A stretch of 59,491 nt of DNA from a virus (Duplodnaviria > Caudoviricetes). The notes under the pieces are model-generated. The model was not told the DNA's origin, did no database searches, and saw only the letters and a program-made list of their open reading frames with translations. Below are positions 1 to 54,159 of this stretch, in pieces. Location: the IMG/VR virus record IMGVR_UViG_3300044691_000368, positions 1 to 59,491 of that record. One strand, 5' to 3'. The position numbers and the translations under genes were made by a program. Position 1 is the stretch's first letter, and the number at the start of each line of letters is the position of its first letter.

Positions 1-215
1 CTGCGGCAGGTTGTGGAGTCATACCGAACTCAGTGCTATCAATGCGAAATAGAGGGAAGGTGTGGGGTCTGCATCAAGGCTGACGCCCTACTTGCAGCAC
101 CCGTAGCTACAAATGCAGGAGAGGAGACGGCTCGCTGCAATTGTAGAACTTTGTGCTCATGCGCCGCCGCCGAAAAGCCACATTGCCATTACTGCAAGTC
201 CAACATGGAGAGCAA

Positions 216-1157
216 GTGATTCACTACCACGGCACGCCTCTTACGCCTGAATCAGCAGCGGCCTCGGTTTTCGCAGGGCGACACGCGATGGTGTCCTTTG
301 CGCACCCTGATCAGTTGCCGTTAGTGGCTGAGGTGTGCCAGTCGTTCGCGCTAGACAACGGAGCTTTCTCTGCGTGGCGTTCAGGCAAACCGATTACAGA
401 TTGGCTACCGTTCCGTGGATGGATCGATGAATGGGCGAGGCATCCCGCCTGCGATTGGTTCCTAATTCCAGATGTGATCGATGGCGACGAACACGACAAT
501 GACAACCTCATATTTGAGTTTCGGGAAGTCAAATCGGGCGTCCCTATCTGGCACCTACACGAGTCCATTACCCGCATCGACAGGCTGATGGAGATGGGAT
601 TCGATCGTATTGCAATCGGGAGCTCTGGCGAGTTCGCAACCATCAAGACAAGCCGCTGGTGGAGTCGTATGGCTGAGGCCATGAAAGCGGTCTGCGACTG
701 CCACGGCAGGCCATACGTGAAGCTACATGGCCTCCGTATGCTCGATCCTGATGTGTTCGGTGCATTCCCCTTCGCAAGTGCAGACAGCACGAATGTAGCG
801 CGTAACGTTGGCCTGGATACGCGATGGCGAGGCACCTATGCGCCAACGAACAAGGCAACACGCGGTCTAGTGTTGGCAAACCGCATCGAAGCGTACCAGT
901 CAGCAGCCGTATGGACGCCTCACATGATTCAAGAAGGCCTAGAACTGTATGACCCCCATCATCAACTAAGTAGCAAGGGAGACAGTGTGAGCATTTACGA
1001 CTATGAAGATTGGGACGTATGCGACAAGCATCGCAAGCTGCATCCATGCCCTGACTGTCGTATTGAATCTGAACGCAGGGAGCACCAGAAGCGGCACGAA
1101 GAATCTGTGGCTCGTCAGCGCAACCAATTGAAGATCGCACCATGGCGAACTAAGTAG
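216..1157 (+). CDS. TGT/DpdA-like (queuine tRNA-ribosyltransferase-like) phage protein with C-terminal Cys-rich extension
   Basis: Motifs IHYHG, FALDNGAFSAW, IPDVIDG, WHLHE, KLHGLRML and ASADSTNVA resemble TGT-fold phage proteins. GTG at 216 overlaps the upstream stop (GTGA). Confidence 0.55.
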   Translation: MIHYHGTPLTPESAAASVFAGRHAMVSFAHPDQLPLVAEVCQSFALDNGAFSAWRSGKPITDWLPFRGWIDEWARHPACDWFLIPDVIDGDEHDNDNLIFEFREVKSGVPIWHLHESITRIDRLMEMGFDRIAIGSSGEFATIKTSRWWSRMAEAMKAVCDCHGRPYVKLHGLRMLDPDVFGAFPFASADSTNVARNVGLDTRWRGTYAPTNKATRGLVLANRIEAYQSAAVWTPHMIQEGLELYDPHHQLSSKGDSVSIYDYEDWDVCDKHRKLHPCPDCRIESERREHQKRHEESVARQRNQLKIAPWRTK

Positions 1158-45227: not shown

Positions 45228-45680
45228 TTAGCAGCCTCTCTCTTTGAAATAGGACTGCCATTGTTTCCAGCCCTTAGAAGTGAAGAATCCCCACTCGCGG
45301 CGACGAGTCCCCATGAAGACGAGCGTTACCGCCTTCTTGCCGTCGATAAGCTCCACGCGGTGTGCATGGGACGCCCTTCGGAACAAGAGCATGCCGGGCC
45401 ATATCCGCTTACGCTGACGAGCCCAGCAGATGCCTTCGGAGCGTTCACTTTCGCGCGTACCGCAGACTAAGCACGGTGTCACCTCGACATAGCCACGCCA
45501 AAGAATCAGTGAAGCGAAGGGCCACGGATGATCGTGCAGTTCGTCAGCATCGCTGCGATGAAAGACGTGCAGGCATACCCTGACAGGTCCGAGTCTAGGG
45601 AATGCGTACCGCGTCATGTAGGGCGAGTTTCCATCCCCGCGAGACTCGCAACCGTAGATAATCTGTTTTGCAACGATCAA
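45228..45680 (-). CDS. Cupin-like phage protein
   Basis: LHVFHRSDADELHDHPW...GYVE...HRVEL...RRREWGF; GGAGGTG RBS before TTG 45680. Confidence 0.7.
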   Translation of the reverse strand: MIVAKQIIYGCESRGDGNSPYMTRYAFPRLGPVRVCLHVFHRSDADELHDHPWPFASLILWRGYVEVTPCLVCGTRESERSEGICWARQRKRIWPGMLLFRRASHAHRVELIDGKKAVTLVFMGTRRREWGFFTSKGWKQWQSYFKERGC

Positions 45681-45718
45681 AGTTTCACCTCCACAGGAAA
45701 ACCGCCTAAAATCCCACC

Positions 45719-45892
45719 ATGGCAAAGAAGCCACGAACTCCAAAAGTCGGCGACAAGGTCATCCCCAAAGGCTCCGAGTTGGTCTACACCATCTGGCAGG
45801 TCTATGAAGATGGAGAGGTCAACATCCACGTCGAGGGGACACTCGTGGAGCGCTACCGGGTGCAGGTTAGAGACCTTACTTGGGTGGAGTAG
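45719..45892 (+). CDS. 57-aa small beta-barrel (SH3/KOW-like) protein on the opposite strand
   Basis: MAKKPRTPKVGDKVIPKGSELVYTIWQVYEDGEVNIHVEG...; fills the gap between two minus-strand genes. Confidence 0.55.
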   Translation: MAKKPRTPKVGDKVIPKGSELVYTIWQVYEDGEVNIHVEGTLVERYRVQVRDLTWVE

Positions 45893-45894
45893 GG

Positions 45895-46935
45895 TCATGC
45901 TGGCACCTCGGCCAACTCTGGCACGTTGTAGAAAAGGCCTAGCTGAGGCCGTATACAGTGAGGCGAAAACCAGATCCGCTCACGCGCGGCATTCTCCCGG
46001 CCAGTTCCCTCACCCTGCGACCCGTAGCCGCCGCGAGATTTCCACGCGACACACTCCCAACTATCCGGCATCTCGTGTTCGCCGTCGTAACCGCACAATG
46101 CAATCCGTAGCTCACGGTTGTCGCCGTTCTCTATCGCCCAGCGGCGAACATCGTGCGCGACGGCCGAGGAATCTGAGGCGTAGAGGTCATCCTGCCGCCC
46201 TGCGGTATCAGCGTAAGGCGGATCGAGGAAGACACCCGTGATGCCATGCTTGAAGGTCACAGAAGGGCCGCAGATGCGTTCCCAATCGCCACAGCAGACA
46301 CGCACCTTGCGGAGCCTCTCTGCCAGTGCAAGCATGTACGCGGAGAGGGGCGATTGCACGGTGCGGTTGATGCCCTTGCCCTTGGTTGCTAGATGGGGAC
46401 GCTTTTGATCTAGGCACGACTCCTCCGTGCCCGCGTCCCCGAGGTGAGGTAGCTTACGGTGTACGCCCGTGCCCGCGCCCCCGAGGTGAGGTAGCTGCCT
46501 GTTTACTCCTCGGCCCGCGTCCCCGAGGTGAGGTAGCTGCACCGAACACCATCCCGAGCCAATCCAGATACACTGTCCCCATACCCACCATCCTGCAATC
46601 TTGGCATCATAAAACTCCGGATCAACCTTCATTCGTTCGCGAAACTCTTCCTGAGAGCAGAGCCATAAATGCTTGGCGTGCTGGTCTGCTTCGTTCACCG
46701 GTTCATCGGCGTAGCGCGTCACGGACTCGGGATCGTTCTGCAACGCACGCCAGAAGTTGGCAACCATGCAATCCAAGTCGTTGATCGTCTCGGTGCCGGG
46801 GTCAGTCTCGCGCCCTAGCAGCACCGCGCCAGATCCGAAGAAGGGTTCGACATAGTTCGGGACGTCGCCGAGGCGTGACCATACGAGGTCGCTCACGCGA
46901 GACTTCCCGCCAAACCATGGAAACGGTGCTTTCAT
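45895..46935 (-). CDS. DNA adenine methyltransferase (Dam/D12 class)
   Basis: PFPWFGGKS, YVEPFFGSG, ETINDLD, FLDPPY. Confidence 0.92.
   Translation of the reverse strand: MKAPFPWFGGKSRVSDLVWSRLGDVPNYVEPFFGSGAVLLGRETDPGTETINDLDCMVANFWRALQNDPESVTRYADEPVNEADQHAKHLWLCSQEEFRERMKVDPEFYDAKIAGWWVWGQCIWIGSGWCSVQLPHLGDAGRGVNRQLPHLGGAGTGVHRKLPHLGDAGTEESCLDQKRPHLATKGKGINRTVQSPLSAYMLALAERLRKVRVCCGDWERICGPSVTFKHGITGVFLDPPYADTAGRQDDLYASDSSAVAHDVRRWAIENGDNRELRIALCGYDGEHEMPDSWECVAWKSRGGYGSQGEGTGRENAARERIWFSPHCIRPQLGLFYNVPELAEVPA
46429..46538 (-). repeat. 42-bp-period tandem repeat inside the methyltransferase (LPHLGxAG x3)
   Basis: GCCCGCG(T/C)CCCCGAGGTGAGGTAGCT at 46429, 46471 and 46513. Confidence 0.9.
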
Positions 46936-47150
46936 CTGGCTCCCTTACACCAAGCCAGCAAAGACTCGCGCCGGATCGTCAAGCTCTCTTCCATGCCGGG
47001 AGTCCAGCGTTTTAGAAGGTAGTCGTATGCGGTGATGGTCTCGGCATACTCCCGCTTACACCTTGTGCATCCCATCTTTTGGGTGTAGCGAGATAAGGAC
47101 TCAATAGGTTCGAGGTCGTGGCCTGAGAGCAGGCAGAGGAGGAGGTTCAC
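46932..47150 (-). CDS. Hypothetical protein
   Basis: LCLLSGH...CTRC. Confidence 0.5.
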   Translation of the reverse strand: MNLLLCLLSGHDLEPIESLSRYTQKMGCTRCKREYAETITAYDYLLKRWTPGMEESLTIRRESLLAWCKGAR

Positions 47151-47980
47151 GCCTTAGCGTCCTTGTCTAGCGTGACGATAACCGTGTTGACGAGCGTCCC
47201 CGATTCCTTGAACGAGCCGGTAGGCAGGTCGATGAGTTCGCCGCAGCCCTCAATCAACGAACGGACGGACTCGTATTCTGTTTCCCGTCGGAACTTGACG
47301 CCCGCACCCATGATGCTGACAAGTCGCCCGCCCGGCTTCAGCAATGAATAGGCGTGGAGGACGTGCTTTGCGTCAGCCCTATTCTCAAATGGAGGGTTCA
47401 TGACGATGCGGTCGTAGAGATATTCCGGAGCCTCGACGGTCCATTGCGTAAAATCCATACATTCGATCAGAACCACAGCCTGAGACTCGTACCGCGCCTG
47501 CATGGCCCCCGATAATTCTGAGTTCAACTCAACTGCGCGAATCGTCGTTGCAATGAGCGGCGGCCCTCCGTCCCGAGCAAGCAACACCCGAAGAGCGGCA
47601 TCGATCAATGCTCCGCTCCCCGCGCTCGGCTCAAGTATTCTTTGGCCGCGCTTCAGATCTGCCATCTCTACGAGCCGGTCGGCTAGACCCCCTGGGGTTG
47701 GGAAGTATCCGTTTTTGGAGAGTGGGGTAATCTCTCCAGAGACGATGACGCCCTCAAGCCTCTCCGTGGTCTGGTGAGGCTGGGAGGCGAACAGATGCGC
47801 CTTTGCCTTCGTGTTCCACTTGCCGCCGATCTCCACCAAGACTCGATTCACCGTCTCATAGAGTTTGCGGTCGAGTTGACCCGCAACGATTCGAACCTCC
47901 GCGCCACCGTTGGTACCGCCGTGCACTGTGCATGCACTCAAAACTGCCAATGCTTCTTCTGGTATTTGAATCGTTCTCAC
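47147..47980 (-). CDS. SAM-dependent amino-methyltransferase (probable N6-adenine DNA MTase)
   Basis: YFPTP, ILEPSAGSG, MNPPF, LKPGGRLV, FKESGT. Confidence 0.88.
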   Translation of the reverse strand: MRTIQIPEEALAVLSACTVHGGTNGGAEVRIVAGQLDRKLYETVNRVLVEIGGKWNTKAKAHLFASQPHQTTERLEGVIVSGEITPLSKNGYFPTPGGLADRLVEMADLKRGQRILEPSAGSGALIDAALRVLLARDGGPPLIATTIRAVELNSELSGAMQARYESQAVVLIECMDFTQWTVEAPEYLYDRIVMNPPFENRADAKHVLHAYSLLKPGGRLVSIMGAGVKFRRETEYESVRSLIEGCGELIDLPTGSFKESGTLVNTVIVTLDKDAKA

Positions 47981-48405
47981 GCAGCCTCTTTCTTCACGCC
48001 CACGGCCGAGCAGATGTCAATCACCACCTGGGTCTGCACTTCGTTGAAATTCCCTATGTGGCAGTTCCCTGCCTCGATTCCCATCTCTTGCGCCAGCCAG
48101 AGGTAAGCTGCATGTCTGGCCTTGTGCTCATCCCACCCGCTCATCACTGCAGCAGCACGCCAGAGCTGGTCGAAGAAGAAGTTTGCTTTGACCTTCAGCG
48201 CCCTCAATTGCCCGTTCGCCAGCCTGCCCATTGGTTTGTGTACCGGGGAGTTCCTGTGTGCTGGCACCCATGCATGGCACGGAAGGCAGATCCAAATCAG
48301 TCCATCACGGTTGGCACGGTTGACGTTGTAGACGAACCCTTTGTCGGCAAGCTCCGCGTCTTTATGGCAGTAGGGACACTCTGGGGCAACAATAACGCCC
48401 GTCAT
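47977..48405 (-). CDS. Zinc-finger protein (DUF3268-like)
   Basis: CPYC, WICLPCHAWV, GRLAN, FDQLW, AYLWLA, CHIG. Confidence 0.8.
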   Translation of the reverse strand: MTGVIVAPECPYCHKDAELADKGFVYNVNRANRDGLIWICLPCHAWVPAHRNSPVHKPMGRLANGQLRALKVKANFFFDQLWRAAAVMSGWDEHKARHAAYLWLAQEMGIEAGNCHIGNFNEVQTQVVIDICSAVGVKKEAA

Positions 48406-48589
48406 CGGGCCGCACCCACGCGGTCCACAAGCCTCTCAAACCGCTTGCGCCGCACATATTCGAGGATTCTTTGGCCTATGAGAGGGACTGACACGCAAAG
48501 GCAGGCTAGGAGCAGTACGACAAGATCGAAGAACATCAGTTTGCTCCAAGGGGAATGAGAACCGACAATAGCACCAAATGAAGAGGAAA

Positions 48590-48650
48590 GTACAGACATA
48601 ATTATCTCTAAAATTATGTCTGTACATAAGTGTCCATAGATTGGTACTAT
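48590..48650. promoter_or_regulatory. Divergent control region: 14-bp inverted repeat operator and extended -10 for xis-int
   Basis: GTACAGACATAATT-N8-AATTATGTCTGTAC (48590-48625); TGGTACTAT at 48642-48650. Confidence 0.7.
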
Positions 48651-48668
48651 TCGCCAGAGGTAATAACA

Positions 48669-48884
48669 GTGACCCAAGCAAATAAGAACGTCCCAGCGAA
48701 TAAGCGCGTGGCCGACAGGCTCTCCGGCGAGATCATGACCCCCAGTGAAGCCGCAGACTTACTGCGCGTTTCGCGACAAACAGTAGTTAGACTGTTCGAG
48801 CAAAAGAAGATACCGGCGCAAAAGATTGGTGTCCTCTGGCGTTGTAAGCGTTCAGAGATTGACAAATTTATGTCCCCAGCCTAG
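48669..48884 (+). CDS. xis: Excisionase-like HTH protein
   Basis: MTPSEAADLLRVSRQTVVRL...IPAQKIG..WR....IDKF; AGAGGT RBS; directly upstream of int. Confidence 0.8.
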   Translation: MTQANKNVPANKRVADRLSGEIMTPSEAADLLRVSRQTVVRLFEQKKIPAQKIGVLWRCKRSEIDKFMSPA

Positions 48885-48914
48885 CATCGGTCAACCGTCC
48901 ACAGGGAGACATAA

Positions 48915-50159
48915 GTGTCCACATCTCGCTATCAACTCGGCTCGCTAGAGAAGCGTAAGTCTGCGCAGGGATTGACTTGGTACCTGCGCTTCCACCAGAC
49001 GGAGGGCGAAGCTGTCCAACGTCCTCGGGTAAGAGTCGGGCTGGTCGCTGAGTTTTCCACAAAGGCCGAACTGAACCGCGCCCTTGAGAAGGCCAGACGT
49101 GAATTCAACACGCCGGAAGCCGACAAGCCCAAGCCTGTCGCGCTATTCCGCCACCTCGTCGAGCAGTACGAGTTGAAGGAGATGCCGGAGCGCTACTCCA
49201 CCTCGCAGAGCTATCAGTCCATGGTGCGGGTGCACATCCTTCCGAAGTGGGGCCACATGCCTGTAGCCGAGGTCAGGCCGGGCGCCGTGAAGGATTGGCT
49301 GTTGGGCCTGCATACCGTCCCGCGCAAGCCGCATCATGCTTCGCGGCCGCTGGCGCCCAAGACTATAGGGCATGTTCGGGGGCTGATGAGCGTGCTGTTT
49401 CGCTATGCGATGCTGCACGACTACATCCCGGCGGCAGTGAATCCCATGACGCTCTTCCCGTTATCCACGGCGCGATTGAAAGAGCCTCGCATCCTGACCG
49501 TTGTCGAGTTCAAGAATGTCGTCATCGAACTGACCACGGAGCCATTCCGCACCATGGTCATCACCGCCGGATGCCTGGGCCTCAGTTGCTCTGAGCTTAT
49601 CGGCATCCGATGGGAGGATGTGGACTGGATCGGCAAGAAGGATGGACCCGCTGTCAGTATTCGCACCGGCGTGGTCAATGGACGGGTCGGGGGAGTCAAG
49701 AACAAGTTCCGCAAGAAGCCCCTGCCCCTACACCTGATCCTCGTCAAGGTGCTGCAGTCTCACTTCCAGAGTTCCGAGTTCCGCAGGCCGGATGACTGGG
49801 TCTTTGCCAGCCCCCATGCCGTCGGCGAGAGCCCGTACAATCCCGGCGACGTTCTGAAAAAGTACATCCGCCCCGCTGCGATCGATATGGAAATCAAGCG
49901 CATGAAGGCCGAGAAGGGTAACTCCCACCTCACCTCAGCGGAATACGCCCACGCCATCGCCCTCGGCAAAGAGATCGGCTGGCACACGTTCCGGCATTCC
50001 TACCGGGCCTGGCTGGGCGATAGCGGAGCCAAGATGGAGATCCAGCGCGATCTCATGCGCCATTCAAACATCAGCACCGCAATAGACACCTACGGGGGAA
50101 CCTTCCCCGAAGGGCTGAGAGAAGCGAACGCTAAAGTCGTGGAAGGATTGCTGCAGTGA
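48915..50159 (+). CDS. int: Tyrosine integrase
   Basis: N-terminal arm-binding domain, SELIGIRWEDVD, GWHTFRHSY, MRHSNISTAIDTY. The usual first catalytic Arg position reads GLSCSE. Confidence 0.93.
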   Translation: MSTSRYQLGSLEKRKSAQGLTWYLRFHQTEGEAVQRPRVRVGLVAEFSTKAELNRALEKARREFNTPEADKPKPVALFRHLVEQYELKEMPERYSTSQSYQSMVRVHILPKWGHMPVAEVRPGAVKDWLLGLHTVPRKPHHASRPLAPKTIGHVRGLMSVLFRYAMLHDYIPAAVNPMTLFPLSTARLKEPRILTVVEFKNVVIELTTEPFRTMVITAGCLGLSCSELIGIRWEDVDWIGKKDGPAVSIRTGVVNGRVGGVKNKFRKKPLPLHLILVKVLQSHFQSSEFRRPDDWVFASPHAVGESPYNPGDVLKKYIRPAAIDMEIKRMKAEKGNSHLTSAEYAHAIALGKEIGWHTFRHSYRAWLGDSGAKMEIQRDLMRHSNISTAIDTYGGTFPEGLREANAKVVEGLLQ

Positions 50160-50160
50160 A

Positions 50161-50340
50161 AATTGCCCCCCAATTGCCCACCAAATCAAATAAGGCTTTT
50201 GATTTCAATACTAACTATCGCCTCATAACCCAAAGGTCGAGGGTTCAAATCCCTCCCCCGCAACCAAACCCCAATAAAATTGACCATCCGCGTCCTCCGC
50301 AGATATCCCTCAGCGGTCGAATTGCCCCGCAATTGCCCCA
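50161..50340 (+). mobile_element. attP: core = 3' half of tRNA-fMet (50222-50266) flanked by paired AATTGCCC(C) arm-type repeats
   Basis: CTCATAA-CCCAA-AGGTC-GAGGG-TTCAAAT-CCCTC-CCCCGCA-A-CCA; arm repeats near 50161, 50172, 50320 and 50331. Confidence 0.88.
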
Positions 50341-50567
50341 AGGGTTTTCCACACCATGCACCGCCTATCTCACGTTGGCAAGTGGTTTACCACTTTGTGG
50401 TGTAGCAGACAAAAGACTTCCGAGTCATCGAAAATTCTTATTGTCTTTTTCCGTAAGTGCGGTTACTGTTTTGGTTCGTCGGCTACTCGACTCAAATGTT
50501 ATTCCTTGCAGGCCATTTTCCCTTCGTAAGCTCTGTGTAGCGCATTCACGCGCCAAAGGAGCTTTCA

Positions 50568-50759
50568 ATGAAAACTCGTCTGGCTTTATTCTTCGCCTTT
50601 GTTCTGTTCAGCCTCTTCGCGTCTATGCAGGTTGCCACGCGCAACCATGCGTCCGTTCTCGCGCAAGCCGGCCCGGTTGGAGATCCAACTCCGTGTCCCC
50701 CCGCCTGCAGCTCCCTCAAGGCGCCGGCCCCGTTGCCGGTCAAGCCTCACAAGAAGTAG
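50568..50759 (+). CDS. Secreted Pro/Cys peptide precursor (63 aa)
   Basis: AAGGAG RBS; MKTR plus hydrophobic core; VLA-QA cleavage-like site; GPVGDPTPCPPAC. Confidence 0.75.
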   Translation: MKTRLALFFAFVLFSLFASMQVATRNHASVLAQAGPVGDPTPCPPACSSLKAPAPLPVKPHKK

Positions 50760-50770
50760 TCCTCTCGCAG

Positions 50771-50792
50771 GGCGCTTCCTCATGGGGGCGCC
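50771..50792 (+). promoter_or_regulatory. Hairpin covering the RBS of the 7-TM gene
   Basis: GGCGCTTCC-TCAT-GGGGGCGCC ends immediately before TTG 50793. Confidence 0.6.
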
Positions 50793-51641
50793 TTGCATAC
50801 TAAAATCACCCACCTCCAGCTTGTCATCTGGATTGCCGTCATAGTTGGTCAACTGGCAGTCGGCCTGTGGTCCTATAGGCGGCGCAACGCCGTCCTTGTG
50901 GTTTATCTTGGCGTCGAGGTTGTCCGCGCCGTCTGTGTCTTCACTGTGGCCCACCTAGCCTCAGCACATGCCTACTACATCGCCTATTGGATAGGATGGT
51001 TTGTCGATTACGCCGCCCAAGTCTATCTCGTGGTGGCCATCTTCCAGACGATCCAGAAAACCGGTATCCCCAGCCGGTATCCTATGCTCCTTCATGTCTT
51101 CGCCGGCTGCATGTTCGCGCTTGCCATATTGACCTTGCGCTTTCCACTGCTAAGCAACATCGACCCAGGCTGGAAGTGGATGCTGACGATTGACCACGTG
51201 GCGCTCTATTGGCTCTGCCTGATGCTCGCCGTGGTGCCGTTCTATGCGTGGATGGTCGACTCCGCGAAAGATACCCGCCTGTTGCTGATTTACCTAGGAT
51301 TCGCACTCTATGTTGCAGTTCGCTCCAACGCGGTCGATACCGCCATCGGAACCCATCTGGCTGTTCGGCCCACCCACATCACCGAAATCGCATACCTCGT
51401 CTCCCTCGTTCTATGGATCATCTCCTCCAACTACCAAGTCGCTAGTCATCAATGGGACCCCGCCCAGACGGAAGCTCTGAAGACGGCCCTCCGCGCAAAA
51501 CACCGGAGCAATCTCCACGAACTCTCAGCCCTGGAAAGGTCCCGCACACATGAATTCCATTTATTCCGGAGCAGCAACTCTCCTGGCCGGAGCCCTCATC
51601 GCCAACATGGCTCGTCGAAACTCAAGCGGCAAAAGCGTTGA
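50793..51641 (+). CDS. Polytopic membrane protein with about 7 TM helices and no catalytic domain
   Basis: Seven hydrophobic segments counted by eye; YYIAYW, GFALY, AYLVSLVLW; short polar tail. Confidence 0.8.
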   Translation: MHTKITHLQLVIWIAVIVGQLAVGLWSYRRRNAVLVVYLGVEVVRAVCVFTVAHLASAHAYYIAYWIGWFVDYAAQVYLVVAIFQTIQKTGIPSRYPMLLHVFAGCMFALAILTLRFPLLSNIDPGWKWMLTIDHVALYWLCLMLAVVPFYAWMVDSAKDTRLLLIYLGFALYVAVRSNAVDTAIGTHLAVRPTHITEIAYLVSLVLWIISSNYQVASHQWDPAQTEALKTALRAKHRSNLHELSALERSRTHEFHLFRSSNSPGRSPHRQHGSSKLKRQKR

Positions 51642-52065
51642 AACCTTCATCCGCAGCATGCGTACCCTATCCAAAGCCGGAGAGGAGTCTATGAACGAAG
51701 TCAACTGCGGCAAGGATCCGAACAAGGATCTGACGCCCGTGCATCTCTCAAGATATGACATCTGGACGCTGTTCTGGAATTCGAGGTTGAATGTGTGCAT
51801 CGCCAACCTAATGCGGGTTTCTGAACCGGACAATCCAGCGTGGGAGTTGATCCTGCGCAAGATGCAAGCCGGCCACGGAGAGGTTTGCCGGCTCGCTCGT
51901 CAGATGATTCTTCTTTCCGCAATCAAGCCCATTGTTGGTAGACTCGGGTTGGGCATGTACGCCCACGTTCTTCTATGGACGTATGGAGAGGAGTTGGAGC
52001 TCCTGAGCCAAATCTCAGAAAGATGTAGTCCTCTGGAGGGAACCGCCATTCGGGCGATCTTGTGA
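51550..52065 (+). CDS. Hypothetical protein with N-terminal hydrophobic anchor
   Basis: Overlaps the 7-TM gene end; GAAAGG RBS. Confidence 0.65.
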   Translation: MNSIYSGAATLLAGALIANMARRNSSGKSVETFIRSMRTLSKAGEESMNEVNCGKDPNKDLTPVHLSRYDIWTLFWNSRLNVCIANLMRVSEPDNPAWELILRKMQAGHGEVCRLARQMILLSAIKPIVGRLGLGMYAHVLLWTYGEELELLSQISERCSPLEGTAIRAIL

Positions 52066-52442
52066 CTATGGATTCACGCGAAGTAATGGACGATTTAGAT
52101 CGTCAGATAGAACGGATGGAGGCTCAGCTCAAACTCCTCAAGTCTCTGCGCGCCGGCCACAAAAAATTGGTCGACATGCCCCAAGGAGAAAGCTCTCCAG
52201 CCACCCGTTTTTACAACATGAGACCCCTGATCGCCGTGCGTCAGATATTGACGGAACGTGGCAAGCCGATACCTTTAGACGAATTGCGCCAGATCCTTAT
52301 CGAGGGCGGAATTACGATCGGGAAGAAGCGCGGCGTCCACAACATCAACAAGGGCATTGAGATAAGCGTTGGCATAGACGAGTTGACCAGCACCGGCAAG
52401 AATGAGTTGATCGGCCTGCCTGAGTGGCAAAAGAAAAAGTAG
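52062..52442 (+). CDS. Coiled-coil plus winged-helix-like putative DNA-binding protein
   Basis: LDRQIERMEAQLKLLKSL, then AVRQILTERGKPIPLDELRQILIEGG...IGLPEW; GTGA coupling. Confidence 0.6.
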   Translation: MTMDSREVMDDLDRQIERMEAQLKLLKSLRAGHKKLVDMPQGESSPATRFYNMRPLIAVRQILTERGKPIPLDELRQILIEGGITIGKKRGVHNINKGIEISVGIDELTSTGKNELIGLPEWQKKK

Positions 52443-52466
52443 TTCGACACGCGAGCCGGTAACAGA

Positions 52467-52495
52467 AAAGCCCTCTTTCGGAGGGCTTTCCGTTT
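52467..52495 (+). terminator. Intrinsic terminator closing the four-gene cassette
   Basis: AAAGCCCTC-TTTCG-GAGGGCTTT followed by CCGTTT. Confidence 0.75.
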
Positions 52496-52703
52496 GTAAT
52501 GGGCAGCTTTATTGGCTCGTTTGAGACGGTGGCCTTGCACTCCATAAAATACCGCCCCCATCACAAATCTTTTGTGCCAGCCGCCCCCGTGGTTGGAGTG
52601 CTCCTGCGAACAGGAAGCAGCACGGGAGGCGACCGGCGAGGCTCAACCGCTTTGCGCGGGAACCCAGATGTCACAATAGCACTGAGTTGACAGGTTTTAT
52701 TCA

Positions 52704-52768
52704 AGACATAATAAAAGACATAAATTGAGAGATAAATCTTGACTTAAATAAGTCTACAGGACTATGGT
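52704..52768 (+). promoter_or_regulatory. Rightward early promoter with operator-like repeats
   Basis: TTGACT(52739)-N18-TATGGT(52763); AGACATAA at 52704 and 52716; palindrome GACTTAAATAAGTC over the -35. Confidence 0.6.
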
Positions 52769-52798
52769 CTCGTTATCGGCTGTTGGAGGCTGATAACG

Positions 52799-53011
52799 AT
52801 GTCAAATAACCCACGCATAGCTAGGGTTCAATGGAACCCCCGCATGAGCAGCAAGCGCCTGAACGAGCTGCTCAACACCCCAAACATCACCGAAGACGAT
52901 GAGGACGCCATCATGGGCGAACTCTGGTTGCGGGACGCTGAGGAGCTTCCGTATGACTCTCCGTGCCTTGACTACTCCCTTCAGCAGCATGAAGCGATGG
53001 GAGGCCGGTAA
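52799..53011 (+). CDS. Hypothetical early protein
   Basis: GGAGG RBS; first gene after the promoter. Confidence 0.6.
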   Translation: MSNNPRIARVQWNPRMSSKRLNELLNTPNITEDDEDAIMGELWLRDAEELPYDSPCLDYSLQQHEAMGGR

Positions 53012-53400
53012 TGGGACATGCAGCTTACATGCGAGGCTCCAAGGCGCTGAGGGGCAGGATCGACAGCGATATCCAAGAGGCACGCGCCCGTGGAGTTATG
53101 TTCATGGTGGCAGTTGAGCACCCGAAATTCCTCCCCTCTCCAGTAGTGGTCCCCGTTGTGGCCACGTCTGCTCCCTCTCTCCCGGCTCGGGTCTGGGTGC
53201 CAATTCTTGATCGTTGCATGCGCGTAGGTCCGGCGAATCGCCATCAGTGCGAGGTTTGCCACAAGCCCACCGGCGTGCAGCTAAACCGTGGATTTCACTG
53301 GTCGGACAGACTTCGGGTTTGGATCAATACCTGCCTCGTTTGCTCCGACTACGTTCGCATGGACAACCAACAGCAGCAGCACTACAAGGGAGGCCGCTAA
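53011..53400 (+). CDS. Hypothetical zinc-finger protein
   Basis: CEVC...CLVC; TAATG coupling. Confidence 0.55.
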   Translation: MGHAAYMRGSKALRGRIDSDIQEARARGVMFMVAVEHPKFLPSPVVVPVVATSAPSLPARVWVPILDRCMRVGPANRHQCEVCHKPTGVQLNRGFHWSDRLRVWINTCLVCSDYVRMDNQQQQHYKGGR

Positions 53401-53615
53401 TGGCTAGAACTCTCCCTTGGGATCCGAACAGGCTCGGCAAGTGCGAGTTCCCCGACTGCAACGGCACGGGGAAGCTCGTCCTGATGCGCCCCTCCAAGCT
53501 CTACGGCTGCGGCACAGAGACCTACGCAGTTGATTGCCCTTGCTGCCTCGGCTCTGGGCGCAAGCCTCCAACCGTGGCCGATGGAAAGATGGCTGCTTCT
53601 GGAGGTGCCCGATGA
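53400..53615 (+). CDS. Small zinc-finger protein
   Basis: CEFPDCNGTG...CPCCLGSG; GGAGG RBS. Confidence 0.55.
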   Translation: MARTLPWDPNRLGKCEFPDCNGTGKLVLMRPSKLYGCGTETYAVDCPCCLGSGRKPPTVADGKMAASGGAR

Positions 53616-53907
53616 GCACACGCGCCTTCATGTTTGCCATTCCCCTCAGCACCGCGGCATGGGCCTGCATTTATCTCGTCGTGCGGATGGTGACGGCATG
53701 ACCTTCCACCACCTCTTATTCGGCTACTTGGTCCCCGCATGGCTAATTGTTGGGGGACTTCTCTTGCTCCGTCGGATGTTCATCGATGGAAGCCCGTTCA
53801 GTGGAGATCGCACATGAGAATCATCTACTCGCTGCTCCAAGTTTCCCGCAATGTCTGGCAGTTCAACATCCACGAAGTTCCAGCCAAGCCTAAGACGGCG
53901 GTGACCT

Positions 53908-54159
53908 ATGTCAATTAGCCCCTGCCGGATGATCGACCATCTCTGCCTCGCCAATCGCGCCTACCAGGTCTTGTACGCGCTCGGGGAAACATCAAGCACG
54001 GTGCGCACCTTGGAGCCGAGTGAAGCTGCCTGTCTCGTCGGCATCGTGCAGGACTTGCTCGCGCCTGACAAGGAATTTACTGAGCTTGATTGCTTCCTGT
54101 TTGGCGCAATGTCGCGCGGGATGATCGCTTACGTTGCCGGATCGGAGGCTGCGGCATGA
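53908..54159 (+). CDS. Hypothetical protein
   Basis: Small ORF ending EAAA, typical of coupled early genes. Confidence 0.45.
   Translation: MSISPCRMIDHLCLANRAYQVLYALGETSSTVRTLEPSEAACLVGIVQDLLAPDKEFTELDCFLFGAMSRGMIAYVAGSEAAA

What the first reader, a model, noticed from the sequence alone, without database searches (positions are those of the whole stretch)
50568..52495. Candidate phage peptide-signalling system beside attP: secreted peptide, 7-TM receptor, partner and wHTH regulator
Seen: a compact four-gene unit closed by a terminator, between attP and the early promoter, where an immunity/decision module is expected. Gene 1 is a 63-aa signal-peptide precursor with a strong RBS and a GPVGDPTPCPPAC core whose two Cys could form a disulfide ring. 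Gene 2 has about 7 TM helices and no kinase or enzyme domain. Gene 3 is a membrane-anchored partner that overlaps it. Gene 4 is a coupled coiled-coil/winged-helix protein. Established: arbitrium (AimP/AimR) uses a re-imported peptide and a cytoplasmic RRNPP receptor in Bacillus phages; nothing here looks RRNPP/TPR-like or like a histidine kinase. Inference: a different communication system that senses an exported peptide at the membrane and relays to a DNA-binding regulator of lysis/lysogeny. I recall similar small-peptide plus membrane-protein pairs in Acidobacteria genomes but cannot verify this here.
Basis: partly seen in the sequence, partly recalled or inferred. Interest (0 to 1): 0.9.

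Follow-up and report, generated by a model that had tools for sequence, protein, structure and literature searches.

The report
Phage peptide–7TM membrane gene module
A soil phage carries four linked genes (a small exported proline-rich peptide, a seven-helix membrane protein, a membrane-tethered helper and a DNA-binding protein) whose peptide/membrane-protein core is a common, undescribed gene pair of Acidobacteria, most simply read as a peptide-sensing switch.

Summary
Between integrase/attP and the early promoter lies a four-gene operon closed by a conserved terminator. It encodes a 63-aa Sec-type precursor with a Pro-rich CPPxC core, an orphan 7-TM protein (N-out/C-in), a 171-aa tethered helical protein and a coiled-coil plus HARE-HTH-like protein.

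The same order recurs in two other viral contigs, in metagenome fragments and, 27-37% identical, at a prophage end in a bacterial genome.

Distant 7-TM homologues occur in 32 of 401 sampled genomes of the phylum of a Bryobacterales MAG. In 27 of the 36 loci I fetched they sit within 1 kb of small Sec-signal, Pro-rich, mostly two-Cys ORFs, 80-fold over the flanks. Thirteen loci add a coupled anchored protein. Nine add an XRE-like HTH gene, and two bacterial loci a g4-like gene.

No component belongs to a Pfam, NCBIfam or PADLOC family, and PHROGs gave only one weak holin match to g2. My searches found no paper describing the module.

A peptide-sensing 7-TM module with transcriptional output is the best reading (about 0.4). 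Cell-to-cell communication and lysis/lysogeny control are not shown. Its place at prophage ends, the tandem peptide genes and the outer-membrane barrier keep exclusion, bacteriocin/immunity and periplasmic roles open.

The parts
48915..50159 (+). Tyrosine integrase, preceded by an HTH_17 excisionase-like gene at 48630-48884. Context for the cassette, not part of it.
   Evidence: Pfam Phage_integrase E 6.3e-07 and phrog_1 E 2.6e-40. HTH_17 E 9.7e-15.
50161..50338 (+). attP region. The 3' half of an initiator tRNA-fMet gene (50222-50266) is flanked by two 19-nt direct repeats, AATTGCCCCnCAATTGCCC, at 50161-50179 and 50320-50338. These may be integrase arm sites.
   Evidence: Sequence. The exact 45-mer occurs in at least 120 genome contigs of Acidobacteriota/Bryobacterales, Nitrospirota and a few Clostridia. 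Repeats. ARAGORN finds no complete tRNA in the window.
50522..50601 (+). An 80-nt stretch (5' leader, RBS and the first 11 codons of g1) that is 97-100% identical in three phages which are 40-95% identical over the rest of the cassette. It can form a hairpin pairing AAGCUC with the GAGCUU of the Shine-Dalgarno region.
   Evidence: Sliding identity and alignment A4. Fold: -20.8 kcal/mol, z -1.37, not significant. All copies are identical, so covariation cannot be tested.
50568..50759 (+). g1: a 63-aa precursor with a Sec-type signal, then a Pro-rich mature part with a P-C-P-P-x-C loop and a basic tail ending PHKK.
   Evidence: Orthologues are in L002, L007 and L003. Indels preserve the frame. 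It passes the same filter that finds the peptides beside the bacterial 7-TM genes. The only other hit in the 59-kb window is an antisense shadow ORF.
50767..50796 (+). A 13-bp hairpin directly after the g1 stop. Its 3' arm holds the g2 ribosome-binding G-run and the TTG start. It could act as an attenuator or as a translational brake that favours the peptide over g2.
   Evidence: -26.1 kcal/mol, z -4.85, 0 of 200 shuffles fold as well. The stems are conserved and the loops differ (TCAT, ATCC, GTAT) in three phages.
50793..51641 (+). g2: an orphan 7-TM protein, N-terminus outside and C-terminus inside. Conserved cytoplasmic motifs are TGIP, VDSAKDTRLLL and the tail HQWDPAQTExLKxALR. The last 30 codons are a window-specific read-through.
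   Evidence: AlphaFold2 model. K+R per sequence is 13.5 on the inside against 4.4 on the outside. Alignment A1. The 1-nt deletion is shown. 35 close homologues, from metagenomes only. 38 representatives among 1.84 billion proteins.
51550..52065 (+). g3: a 171-aa all-helical protein with an uncharged N-terminal anchor followed by Arg, so the body is predicted to be cytoplasmic. Conserved motifs are FWNSR..ANR.R and LLWTYGEELELL..ISEKC.P.EG.AIRAIL.
   Evidence: 34 homologues, on contigs of the same lengths as those of the g2 hits. Alignment A3. AlphaFold2 pLDDT 72. Anchor statistics. No fold match above background.
52068..52442 (+). g4: 124 aa, an N-terminal coiled coil plus a C-terminal HARE-HTH-like winged helix (RFYNxRP...ILxxxGKPI...GLPEW). 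Its start lies 2 nt after the g3 stop.
   Evidence: Alignment A2. Pfam HARE-HTH in 1 of 11 members, E 0.02, below the cut-off. Atlas feature score 0.92 to a cluster with 28% HARE-HTH, and structure TM 0.46 to a 99% HARE-HTH cluster, both leads only.
52466..52496 (+). Intrinsic terminator that closes the cassette: AGCCCUC-UUUCG-GAGGGCU followed by a U-rich tail.
   Evidence: One search lists an overlapping site. The CCCUC/GAGGG core pairs in 4 of 4 loci, and the flanking stem letters differ between loci.
52739..52768 (+). Promoter-like site ahead of the early rightward operon (Erf-like annealing protein, exonuclease). A candidate target of g4, untested.
   Evidence: TTGACT-18-TATGGT. TTGACTT is invariant in 4 loci.

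Best explanation
g1-g4 form a self-contained signal-transduction module that temperate phages of Acidobacteriota-like hosts carry at the end of the prophage. Its core, the peptide gene plus the 7-TM gene, is a host-type gene pair.

Proposed working. Only the gene content, the gene order and their conservation are shown; every step below is inferred.
1. The operon is transcribed from its own conserved leader. A strong hairpin after g1 keeps the peptide in excess over g2-g4.
2. The precursor is exported by Sec and cut after VLA or AQA. This releases a Pro-rich peptide of about 30 residues whose two Cys close a small loop.
3. The peptide, in the periplasm or coming from neighbouring cells, binds the outer face of the 7-TM protein.
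4. The 7-TM protein passes the state on through its highly conserved cytoplasmic loops and tail to the tethered helical protein g3.
5. g3 holds or releases the coiled-coil/winged-helix protein g4.
6. g4 acts on DNA, at the cassette's own promoter and/or the adjacent early promoter.
For: 1. Linkage over deep divergence. The order g1-g2-g3-g4 is kept in three viral contigs and in metagenome fragments. It is also kept in a prophage of genome G964 at 27%, 33% and 37% identity for g2, g3 and g4.

2. Peptide and 7-TM go together. Distant 7-TM homologues occur in 32 of 401 sampled genomes of the phylum. I fetched 36 loci.
- Strict filter: 18 of 36 loci, with 24 ORFs, have a same-strand small Sec-signal Pro-rich ORF within 1 kb. 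Only 5 such ORFs lie in the remaining 644 kb of strand space. That is 44-fold, Poisson 5e-31.
- Relaxed filter: 27 of 36 loci, with 44 ORFs, 80-fold.
- Most carry a Pro-containing loop between two Cys, like CPPAC of g1.

3. Peptide types follow the 7-TM clades on a quick tree, as expected of cognate pairs.

4. The 7-TM protein is not enzyme-like. Across the broad family only W208 is invariant, and Y58 and L205 nearly so. No Pfam or NCBIfam family matches. Its predicted bundle has the N-out/C-in seven-helix arrangement of receptors.

5. The cytoplasmic side is the better conserved: loops 0.80 against 0.73.

6. A coupled tethered cytoplasmic protein recurs. g3 is present in all phage-type loci, and 13 of 36 bacterial loci have an anchored protein of 173-192 aa whose start lies within 82 nt of the 7-TM stop, overlapping or abutting it in 12.

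7. DNA-binding partners of two unrelated kinds recur.
- g4-like genes are found in the phage clade, in G964 and in G870.
- An XRE-like HTH gene of about 245-340 aa is found in 9 bacterial loci.

8. The peptides have ordinary Sec signals with AXA sites, so no dedicated exporter or processing enzyme is needed.
Against: - No binding, expression or phenotype data exist.
- The likely hosts are diderm. A Sec-exported peptide of about 3 kDa stays in the periplasm unless something carries it across the outer membrane, which weakens the cell-to-cell reading.
- 23 of 36 bacterial loci lack an anchored partner by my rule. Two of these, L161 and L167, have one about 350 nt downstream.
- A 12-member clade has only tandem peptide genes plus a longer 7-TM protein. 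This looks as much like a bacteriocin/immunity pair as like a receptor.
- The cassette lies at prophage ends, next to attP here and after tail-fibre genes in G964. That is where lysogenic-conversion and exclusion genes usually lie.
- The fold match to GPCR/rhodopsin bundles (best Z 12.6, rmsd 4.5 over 194 residues; Foldseek best E 0.13) is below the level at which a helical bundle means more than a common arrangement.
- The winged helix of g4 is sub-threshold.
- Homology between g3 and the bacterial anchored proteins is not shown (hhalign probability 8%).
- The XRE-like domain reaches a Pfam cut-off in only 1 of the 5 proteins scanned.
- The 36 loci are not independent, and the filters are my own, not SignalP.
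Confidence: 0.4

Rival explanations
1. Lysogenic-conversion membrane module. The prophage expresses g1-g3 to alter the envelope and block superinfecting phages (exclusion or abortive infection). g4 serves as the cassette's own regulator.
For: The cassette sits at the prophage end in both known positions: beside attP in the window, and after tail-fibre genes, convergent and next to host genes, in G964. It has its own leader and terminator. Small membrane and periplasmic proteins are the usual exclusion agents of prophages (my knowledge, not a call).
Against: There are no PADLOC matches for 10 proteins of the module. Homologous peptide/7-TM pairs are chromosomal in 32 of 401 genomes, often 2-3 per genome, with conserved regulators, which points to a cell-physiological role. 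Exclusion needs neither a diversifying secreted peptide nor tandem peptide genes.
Confidence: 0.2
2. A secreted peptide toxin (bacteriocin-like) with the 7-TM protein as producer immunity. g3 and g4 (or XRE) are regulators.
For: Up to four near-identical tandem peptide genes, or repeat-unit precursors, lie next to a polytopic membrane protein. Many loci hold only the minimal two-gene form. A hairpin after the peptide gene fits a high peptide-to-partner ratio. Polytopic immunity proteins are known for class II bacteriocins (my knowledge, not a call).
Against: The mature parts are short, Pro-rich and mostly not amphipathic or strongly cationic (sequences). Sec export into the periplasm of a diderm gives no route out. 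No lysis or export genes lie in the cassette. A phage gains little from killing potential hosts.
Confidence: 0.15
3. A periplasmic metal- or redox-handling peptide (Cys, Met and His in a Pro-rich frame). The 7-TM protein is its membrane partner or sensor, and the regulators respond to metal or envelope stress.
For: Two Cys, with Met or His nearby, occur in many peptides, for example ...MPVPMCPPSDPNGC and ...KPHKK. Sec-signal Cys peptides acting as copper-binding RiPPs exist (bufferins, PMC11626156; I saw the search listing and the start of the abstract only). Five loci have a thioredoxin-motif neighbour.
Against: There is no modifying enzyme (MNIO/DUF692 type) in the cassette or in the loci I read. 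Many peptides have no Cys at all (repeat-unit types). The thioredoxin neighbour is confined to one clade of related loci.
Confidence: 0.08
4. The 7-TM protein is a maturation enzyme for the peptide (AgrB-like cleavage or cyclisation, or a sortase-like transfer) rather than a receptor.
For: The precursor plus polytopic-protein layout resembles agrD/agrB. In the phage subfamily H135 and C142 are nearly invariant and 7 residues apart. That AgrB shows the same spacing is my recollection, not a call.
Against: C142 and most polar residues are not conserved in the wider family, where only W208 is invariant. There is no Pfam AgrB match at E up to 1. The precursor has a normal Sec signal, so signal peptidase suffices.
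Confidence: 0.05

Closest known systems
Arbitrium (AimP/AimR/AimX) of Bacillus phages
   Same: It is phage-borne. A small exported peptide gene is linked to a DNA-binding protein, near the integrase in the window. The peptide sequence differs between related phages.
   Different: There is no RRNPP/TPR receptor. Here the candidate receptor is a 7-TM membrane protein with a tethered partner. The peptide is about 30 residues with a Cys loop, not a hexapeptide. The host is probably diderm. Control of lysogeny is not shown. The arbitrium features named here are from search listings and abstract starts only and from my own knowledge.
Agr quorum sensing (AgrD/B/C/A), including the agr cassette carried by Clostridioides phage phiCDHM1 (PMC3901668; search listing and abstract start only)
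   Same: A peptide precursor, polytopic membrane proteins and a DNA-binding output sit in one operon. There is precedent for a phage carrying a host-type peptide-signalling cassette.
   Different: There is no histidine kinase or response regulator and no AgrB family match. Export is by Sec signal. No sequence relation was found.
Bacterial 7-TM receptors (7TMR-DISM and the like) and GPCR/rhodopsin-type bundles
   Same: Seven helices, N-out/C-in, and the best structural neighbours are GPCR, LYCHOS and rhodopsin bundles (Z 10-12.6).
   Different: There is no Pfam match to any 7-TM receptor family. There is no extracellular sensor domain, no fused output domain and no retinal lysine in TM7 (sequence). 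The Z-score is below the level that indicates kinship for helical bundles.
Membrane-tethered control of a DNA-binding protein (anti-sigma/sigma pairs, BlaR1/BlaI)
   Same: A tethered cytoplasmic protein is encoded directly before a small winged-helix protein, with coupled translation. This suggests sequestration or release.
   Different: No sequence or fold relation of g3 to anti-sigma factors was found. g4 is not a sigma factor, and no protease is evident.
HARE-HTH winged-helix domain (PF05066)
   Same: The C-terminal 80 residues of g4 resemble it.
   Different: The match is below Pfam's cut-off, and g4 has an added N-terminal coiled coil. Known HARE-HTH proteins are mostly parts of RNA polymerase delta, restriction or modification-sensing proteins (listings), not partners of membrane proteins.

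Membership tests
Arbitrium / RRNPP peptide signalling | A cytoplasmic receptor with an N-terminal HTH and C-terminal TPR repeats | tested here: not met
   No TPR or RRNPP family was found in g2, g3 or g4 at E up to 1 in Pfam or at 0.01 in NCBIfam for g2 and g3.
Arbitrium / RRNPP peptide signalling | A short mature peptide re-imported by an oligopeptide permease | not testable with these tools
   This needs mass spectrometry and uptake assays.
Agr-type peptide signalling | An AgrB-family maturation protein, with a histidine kinase and response regulator | tested here: not met
   No AgrB, HisKA, HATPase or response-regulator match in g1-g4. The wider 7-TM family has no conserved His/Cys pair.
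Sec-exported secreted peptide | A positive N-terminus, a hydrophobic core of 10-20 residues and a small-x-small cleavage site | tested here: met
   MKTR, a 19-residue core with KD 2.19, then VLA|Q or AQA|G. This is a rule-based reading; SignalP was not available. The cleavage site lies 9-11 residues after the core, which is longer than usual.
HARE-HTH winged helix (PF05066), for g4 | A match to the family profile at the gathering score | tested here: inconclusive
   1 of 11 family members matches, at E 0.02. Atlas leads: 0.92 by features and TM 0.46 by structure. The profile search against PDB sequences found nothing relevant.
GPCR / microbial rhodopsin 7-TM fold, for g2 | A seven-helix bundle that superposes well above background; for rhodopsins, also a retinal-binding Lys in TM7 | tested here: inconclusive
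   Best Z 12.6 (rmsd 4.5, 194 aligned), with a flat list of 50 rows at Z 10.2-12.6. Foldseek best E 0.13. There is no Lys in TM7, residues 194-212.
Phage lysis genes (holin, spanin) | Holin family membership, or an o-spanin lipobox with Cys at +1; position in a lysis cassette | tested here: not met
   The only hit is a weak, local one: phrog_1299 holin at E 9.7e-05 over 39 residues of g2. g1 has no lipobox; its Cys residues are at positions 43 and 47, far from the signal. No endolysin lies nearby.
Known anti-phage defence systems (PADLOC) | A match to any of 5027 defence protein models | tested here: not met
   0 matches for 10 proteins of the phage, prophage and bacterial modules at E up to 0.01. 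The library dates from 2023.
New family proposed here: secreted Pro-rich peptide + 7-TM gene pair | A 7-TM homologue with a same-strand small Sec-signal Pro-rich ORF within 1 kb | tested here: met
   The window, L002 and L007 all pass the filter. So do 27 of 36 bacterial loci, and by eye G964 and G870.

The most novel reading that the evidence does not exclude
A phage communication system of a new kind. Each phage lineage exports its own Cys-looped Pro-rich peptide. The peptide is sensed at the cell surface by a phage-encoded 7-TM receptor with GPCR-like topology. Through the tethered adaptor g3, the receptor sequesters or frees the winged-helix protein g4, which sets the adjacent early promoter. 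Lysogeny or induction would then depend on the density of related lysogens. This would be arbitrium-like behaviour outside the Firmicutes, through a membrane receptor, built from a host signalling family that is itself undescribed.
Probability: 0.2. Interest if true: 0.95.

Novelty: categorically new. Interest (0 to 1): 0.78.

Why it matters
If the reading holds, bacteria of a major soil phylum have a peptide-signalling system built on a free-standing 7-TM protein and a tethered adaptor, not on kinases or RRNPP receptors. Their temperate phages have captured it together with a DNA-binding output.

That would widen the known means of phage and bacterial communication. It would give Acidobacteriota, which are hard to study, a testable signalling pathway. 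It would also give a rare prokaryotic case of a peptide ligand paired with a seven-helix receptor.

Even if the function proves different (exclusion, immunity or metal handling), the tight, phylum-wide link between a family of small secreted Cys-loop peptides and an orphan membrane family is a new, well-defined gene pair without annotation.

Tried and rejected
- RNA evidence: the look-up of sequencing runs listed two soil DNA runs and no RNA holder. I did not use read laying, so nothing can be said on expression.
- Complex prediction of g2+g3+g4, with g4 as partner: 'no answer', score 0.02 against a mark of 0.32. This is neither for nor against binding.
- Rfam on 48000-54000 gave only a chance-level match to asX2, E 0.8, at the terminator.
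- Sequence search of PDB with the g4 and g3 profiles found nothing meaningful.
- The g3 model has no fold match above background: best Z 6.5, Foldseek E 1.8. The Atlas gave no usable hit for g3.
- The genome-contig scan with the g2 alignment found none among 24 candidates.
- The metagenome scan gave only 3 short loci.
- Viral scans with g2, g3, g4 and the leader found only the same two contigs.
- The phage-type g2 was not found in 401 sampled genomes of the order of G001.
- The SD-sequestering leader hairpin is not significant (z -1.37).
- The consensus fold of the 250-nt spacer after the terminator has only weak support.
- The AgrB idea was dropped, because H135/C142 are not conserved in the wider family.
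- The spanin and holin ideas were dropped: no lipobox and no lysis context.
- The careful tree did not finish, so I used the quick tree with its long-branch warnings.
- Literature: six searches found no paper on a peptide/7-TM module in Acidobacteria or phages. I read only listings and abstract starts, and supplements were closed.

Rows dropped:
- A1 uses 29 of 35 hits; the six shortest (174-227 aa) were left out.
- A3 uses 31 of the 34 hits plus the window's full-length g3. Dropped: P0080, the window's own short gene call, and P0087 and P0105.
- A6 uses 30 of the 32 distant representatives P0041-P0072 plus 6 close ones. P0068 and P0071 (partial matches) were left out, and so was the 108-aa fragment P0040, which is not a distant one.
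- Of the 47 places I fetched 36. The other 11 were weak, partial or on very short contigs.
- L157 was dropped from the anchor count, because its downstream gene is a second 7-TM gene.


Full report
**What the window is.** The window is a complete or nearly complete viral record: 59,491 bp, linear, 98% complete by CheckV. PHROG scans show that it is a temperate phage. They find an excisionase-like HTH_17 gene and a tyrosine integrase at 48630-50159, a rightward early operon with Erf-like and exonuclease genes, a DnaB-like helicase, a replication initiator and methyltransferases. Structural genes lie on the minus strand.

Directly after the integrase, 50222-50266 is the 3' half of an initiator tRNA-fMet gene. 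This is my reading of the sequence, since ARAGORN finds no whole tRNA. The exact 45-mer occurs in at least 120 genome contigs, mostly Bryobacterales and other Acidobacteriota and Nitrospirota, with a few Clostridia. This is attP. The host is probably an acidobacterium, but that is not proven.

**The observation.** The four ORFs exist as described.
- g1 (50568-50759) has a strong RBS, a Sec-type signal and a Pro-rich mature part with P-C-P-P-A-C. Among three phage copies, 4 of 4 indels are multiples of three, so it is translated.
- g2 (50793-51641) folds as seven TM helices plus a C-terminal amphipathic helix (pLDDT 77). K+R counts of 13.5 inside against 4.4 outside put the N-terminus outside.
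- g3 (51550-52065) has an uncharged N-terminal segment in 32 of 32 relatives and an all-helical body.
- g4 (best start 52068) has a coiled-coil N-terminus and a C-terminal domain that resembles HARE-HTH only below threshold.
- The terminator is conserved, with differing stem letters, in four loci.

One correction is needed. The 92-nt g2/g3 overlap comes from a 1-nt deletion peculiar to this window. In four relatives g2 stops at or next to the g3 start: TGA overlapping the ATG in three, and TAA directly before it in L005.

**RNA-level features.**
- An 80-nt stretch (leader, RBS and the first 11 codons of g1) is 97-100% identical in three phages whose cassettes are otherwise 40-95% identical. 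This points to a nucleotide-level constraint such as an operator, a leader structure or an sRNA target. I could not tell which.
- A 13-bp hairpin right after g1 covers the g2 start (z -4.85). Its stems are conserved and its loops vary. It would favour the peptide over the downstream genes.

**Relatives of the cassette.**
- Close g2 homologues number 35, all from metagenomes. A profile search of 1.84 billion representatives gave only 38 hits.
- g3 has 34 homologues, on contigs of the same lengths as those of the g2 hits. g4 has 7.
- Complete cassettes in the same order are found in two other viral contigs, L002 and L007, and pieces in three metagenome contigs.
- L002 has two g4 paralogues. L007 has an extra secreted protein after g4.
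- Neither Pfam nor NCBIfam nor PADLOC names any of the proteins, and PHROGs gave only one weak holin match to g2.

I used a Bryobacterales genome reached through the tRNA match as centre. A profile of the broad 7-TM family then found homologues in 32 of 401 sampled genomes of that phylum, often two or three per genome. I fetched 36 of the 47 places with 5-kb flanks and screened all ORFs with a simple filter of my own: a positive N-terminus, a hydrophobic core and a Pro-rich mature part.
- Strict filter: 24 such ORFs lie on the same strand within 1 kb of the 7-TM gene, in 18 of 36 loci. Only 5 lie in the remaining 644 kb of strand space. That is 44-fold, Poisson 5e-31.
- Relaxed filter, which also admits Pro-containing Cys-x(2-10)-Cys loops: 44 ORFs in 27 of 36 loci, 80-fold.
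- Five more loci have an upstream small ORF with a hydrophobic N-terminus that fails the filter.
- The same filter, run on the whole window, returns g1 and one antisense shadow ORF.

The peptides are diverse. Some are single genes and some are two to four tandem copies. Others are precursors with three to seven repeat units. Most have a loop such as CPPGRKC, CDPADPKC or CAPNDPNAC, and the phage has CPPAC or CPPLC. On a quick tree the peptide types follow the 7-TM clades (the careful search did not finish and there are long-branch warnings). The loci come from different species-level genomes but are not independent, so the P-values overstate the case. The size of the effect does not.

**Further recurrent partners.**
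- In 13 of 36 loci a protein of 173-192 aa with an N-terminal anchor starts within 82 nt of the 7-TM stop, overlapping or abutting it in 12. This is the architecture of g3. Homology to g3 is not shown (hhalign probability 8%).
- Nine loci, all of them with such an anchored protein, have one family of HTH proteins of about 245-340 aa nearby. XRE-type Pfam matches are weak: they occur in 4 of 5 proteins scanned, and one reaches a cut-off.
- A search with the phage-type profile in another order found 9 of 301 genomes with a match. One of them, G855, is unpublished and I did not read it.
- G964 holds the whole cassette (peptide ending ...GIPCPPCIPPVGH, 7-TM, g3 and g4) at 27-37% identity. It lies directly after prophage tail genes (central tail fibre J, phrog_31, E 1.7e-81), convergent with them and next to host-like genes.
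- G870 has a peptide, a 7-TM gene, a coupled soluble helical protein and a g4-like gene (hmmsearch E 1.4e-07).

The output partner is therefore a DNA-binding protein of one kind or another in several lineages.

**Interpretation.** Several observations point the same way:
- the deep conservation of the four-gene order;
- the near-universal peptide partner;
- the lack of conserved catalytic residues in the 7-TM family (only W208 is invariant);
- the better-conserved cytoplasmic face;
- the tethered partner;
- the recurrent DNA-binding genes.

Together they fit best a ligand-sensing membrane module with transcriptional output. I put this at about 0.4.

It is not shown that the peptide is the ligand, that it leaves the cell, or that the output bears on lysogeny. 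In a diderm host, Sec export ends in the periplasm. The peptide may therefore be an autocrine or periplasm-confined modulator rather than a pheromone.

The cassette's place at prophage ends fits an accessory module expressed in the lysogen. Exclusion (0.2), bacteriocin/immunity (0.15), metal or redox handling (0.08) and peptide maturation (0.05) remain open.

**Comparison and novelty.** In function the nearest known systems are arbitrium and Agr. For Agr there is the precedent of a phage carrying an agr cassette (phiCDHM1, PMC3901668; listing only). None of the defining parts of those systems is present, so this is not a member of either.

The fold of g2 resembles GPCR/rhodopsin bundles only at the level of a common arrangement (Z 12.6).

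Six literature searches found no description of the module. I saw listings and abstract starts only, and supplements were closed. I therefore rate the module as categorically new in its parts, with the function still to be shown.

Noticed in passing
window 51540-51552: A 1-nt deletion relative to four relatives shifts the end of g2. It then reads 30 codons into g3 instead of stopping at or next to the g3 start, as it does in the relatives. This could be a natural variant or an assembly error. The extension is modelled at pLDDT below 50.
   Followed up: yes
window 52497-52738: A spacer of about 240 nt, with no conserved ORF, lies between the cassette terminator and the early promoter. It has invariant blocks (CACAATAGCAC, GGGGAACCC, CAGCCGCC) in four loci and a promoter-like site at 52521-52550. 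It could be a small RNA or an operator region. The consensus fold is weak and Rfam finds nothing.
   Followed up: partly
window 52770-52799: An 11-nt inverted repeat, TCGTTATCGGC / GCTGATAACGA, overlaps the RBS and start of the first early gene. Some paired changes occur in relatives. It may be an operator or a translational hairpin.
   Followed up: no
L002 7267-7674 and 7710-8078: The related phage has two tandem g4 paralogues of 135 and 123 aa. The second is the closer one to the window's g4 (49% identity to it, against 47% for the first).
   Followed up: partly
L007 2729-3493: In the third phage, a 254-aa ORF containing a signal-peptide-like segment is inserted between g4 and the terminator.
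   Followed up: no
window 153-1157 and 45895-47980: A queuine tRNA-ribosyltransferase-like gene (phrog_887, E 1.1e-67) and two DNA methyltransferase-like genes suggest that the phage modifies its DNA. This may bear on g4 if HARE-HTH domains sense modified DNA, as papers listed suggest.
   Followed up: no
window 45228-45743: A cysteine dioxygenase-like gene (phrog_4786, E 9.5e-35) lies in the phage's leftward early region.
   Followed up: no
L153, L156, L158, L160, L170 (about 1.5-1.9 kb downstream of the 7-TM gene, opposite strand): The clade whose peptide lies downstream (…CPP…C type) has a conserved neighbour of 715-773 aa with a thioredoxin-like WCHWCH motif. This may be mere synteny among related genomes.
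   Followed up: no
L154, L159, L168, L175, L177, L182 (between the XRE-like gene and the peptide gene, opposite strand): A conserved ORF of 135-258 aa (…FEDFV.RT…L.Y.A.LR…HWGL.R.HG…) has no Pfam or NCBIfam match. It may be a fifth component of the bacterial loci.
   Followed up: partly
L013, L042, L050, L076/L077: Several genome contigs hold two copies of the tRNA-fMet 3' half, 1.3-7 kb apart. These could be att sites flanking small integrated elements, or duplicated tRNA genes.
   Followed up: no
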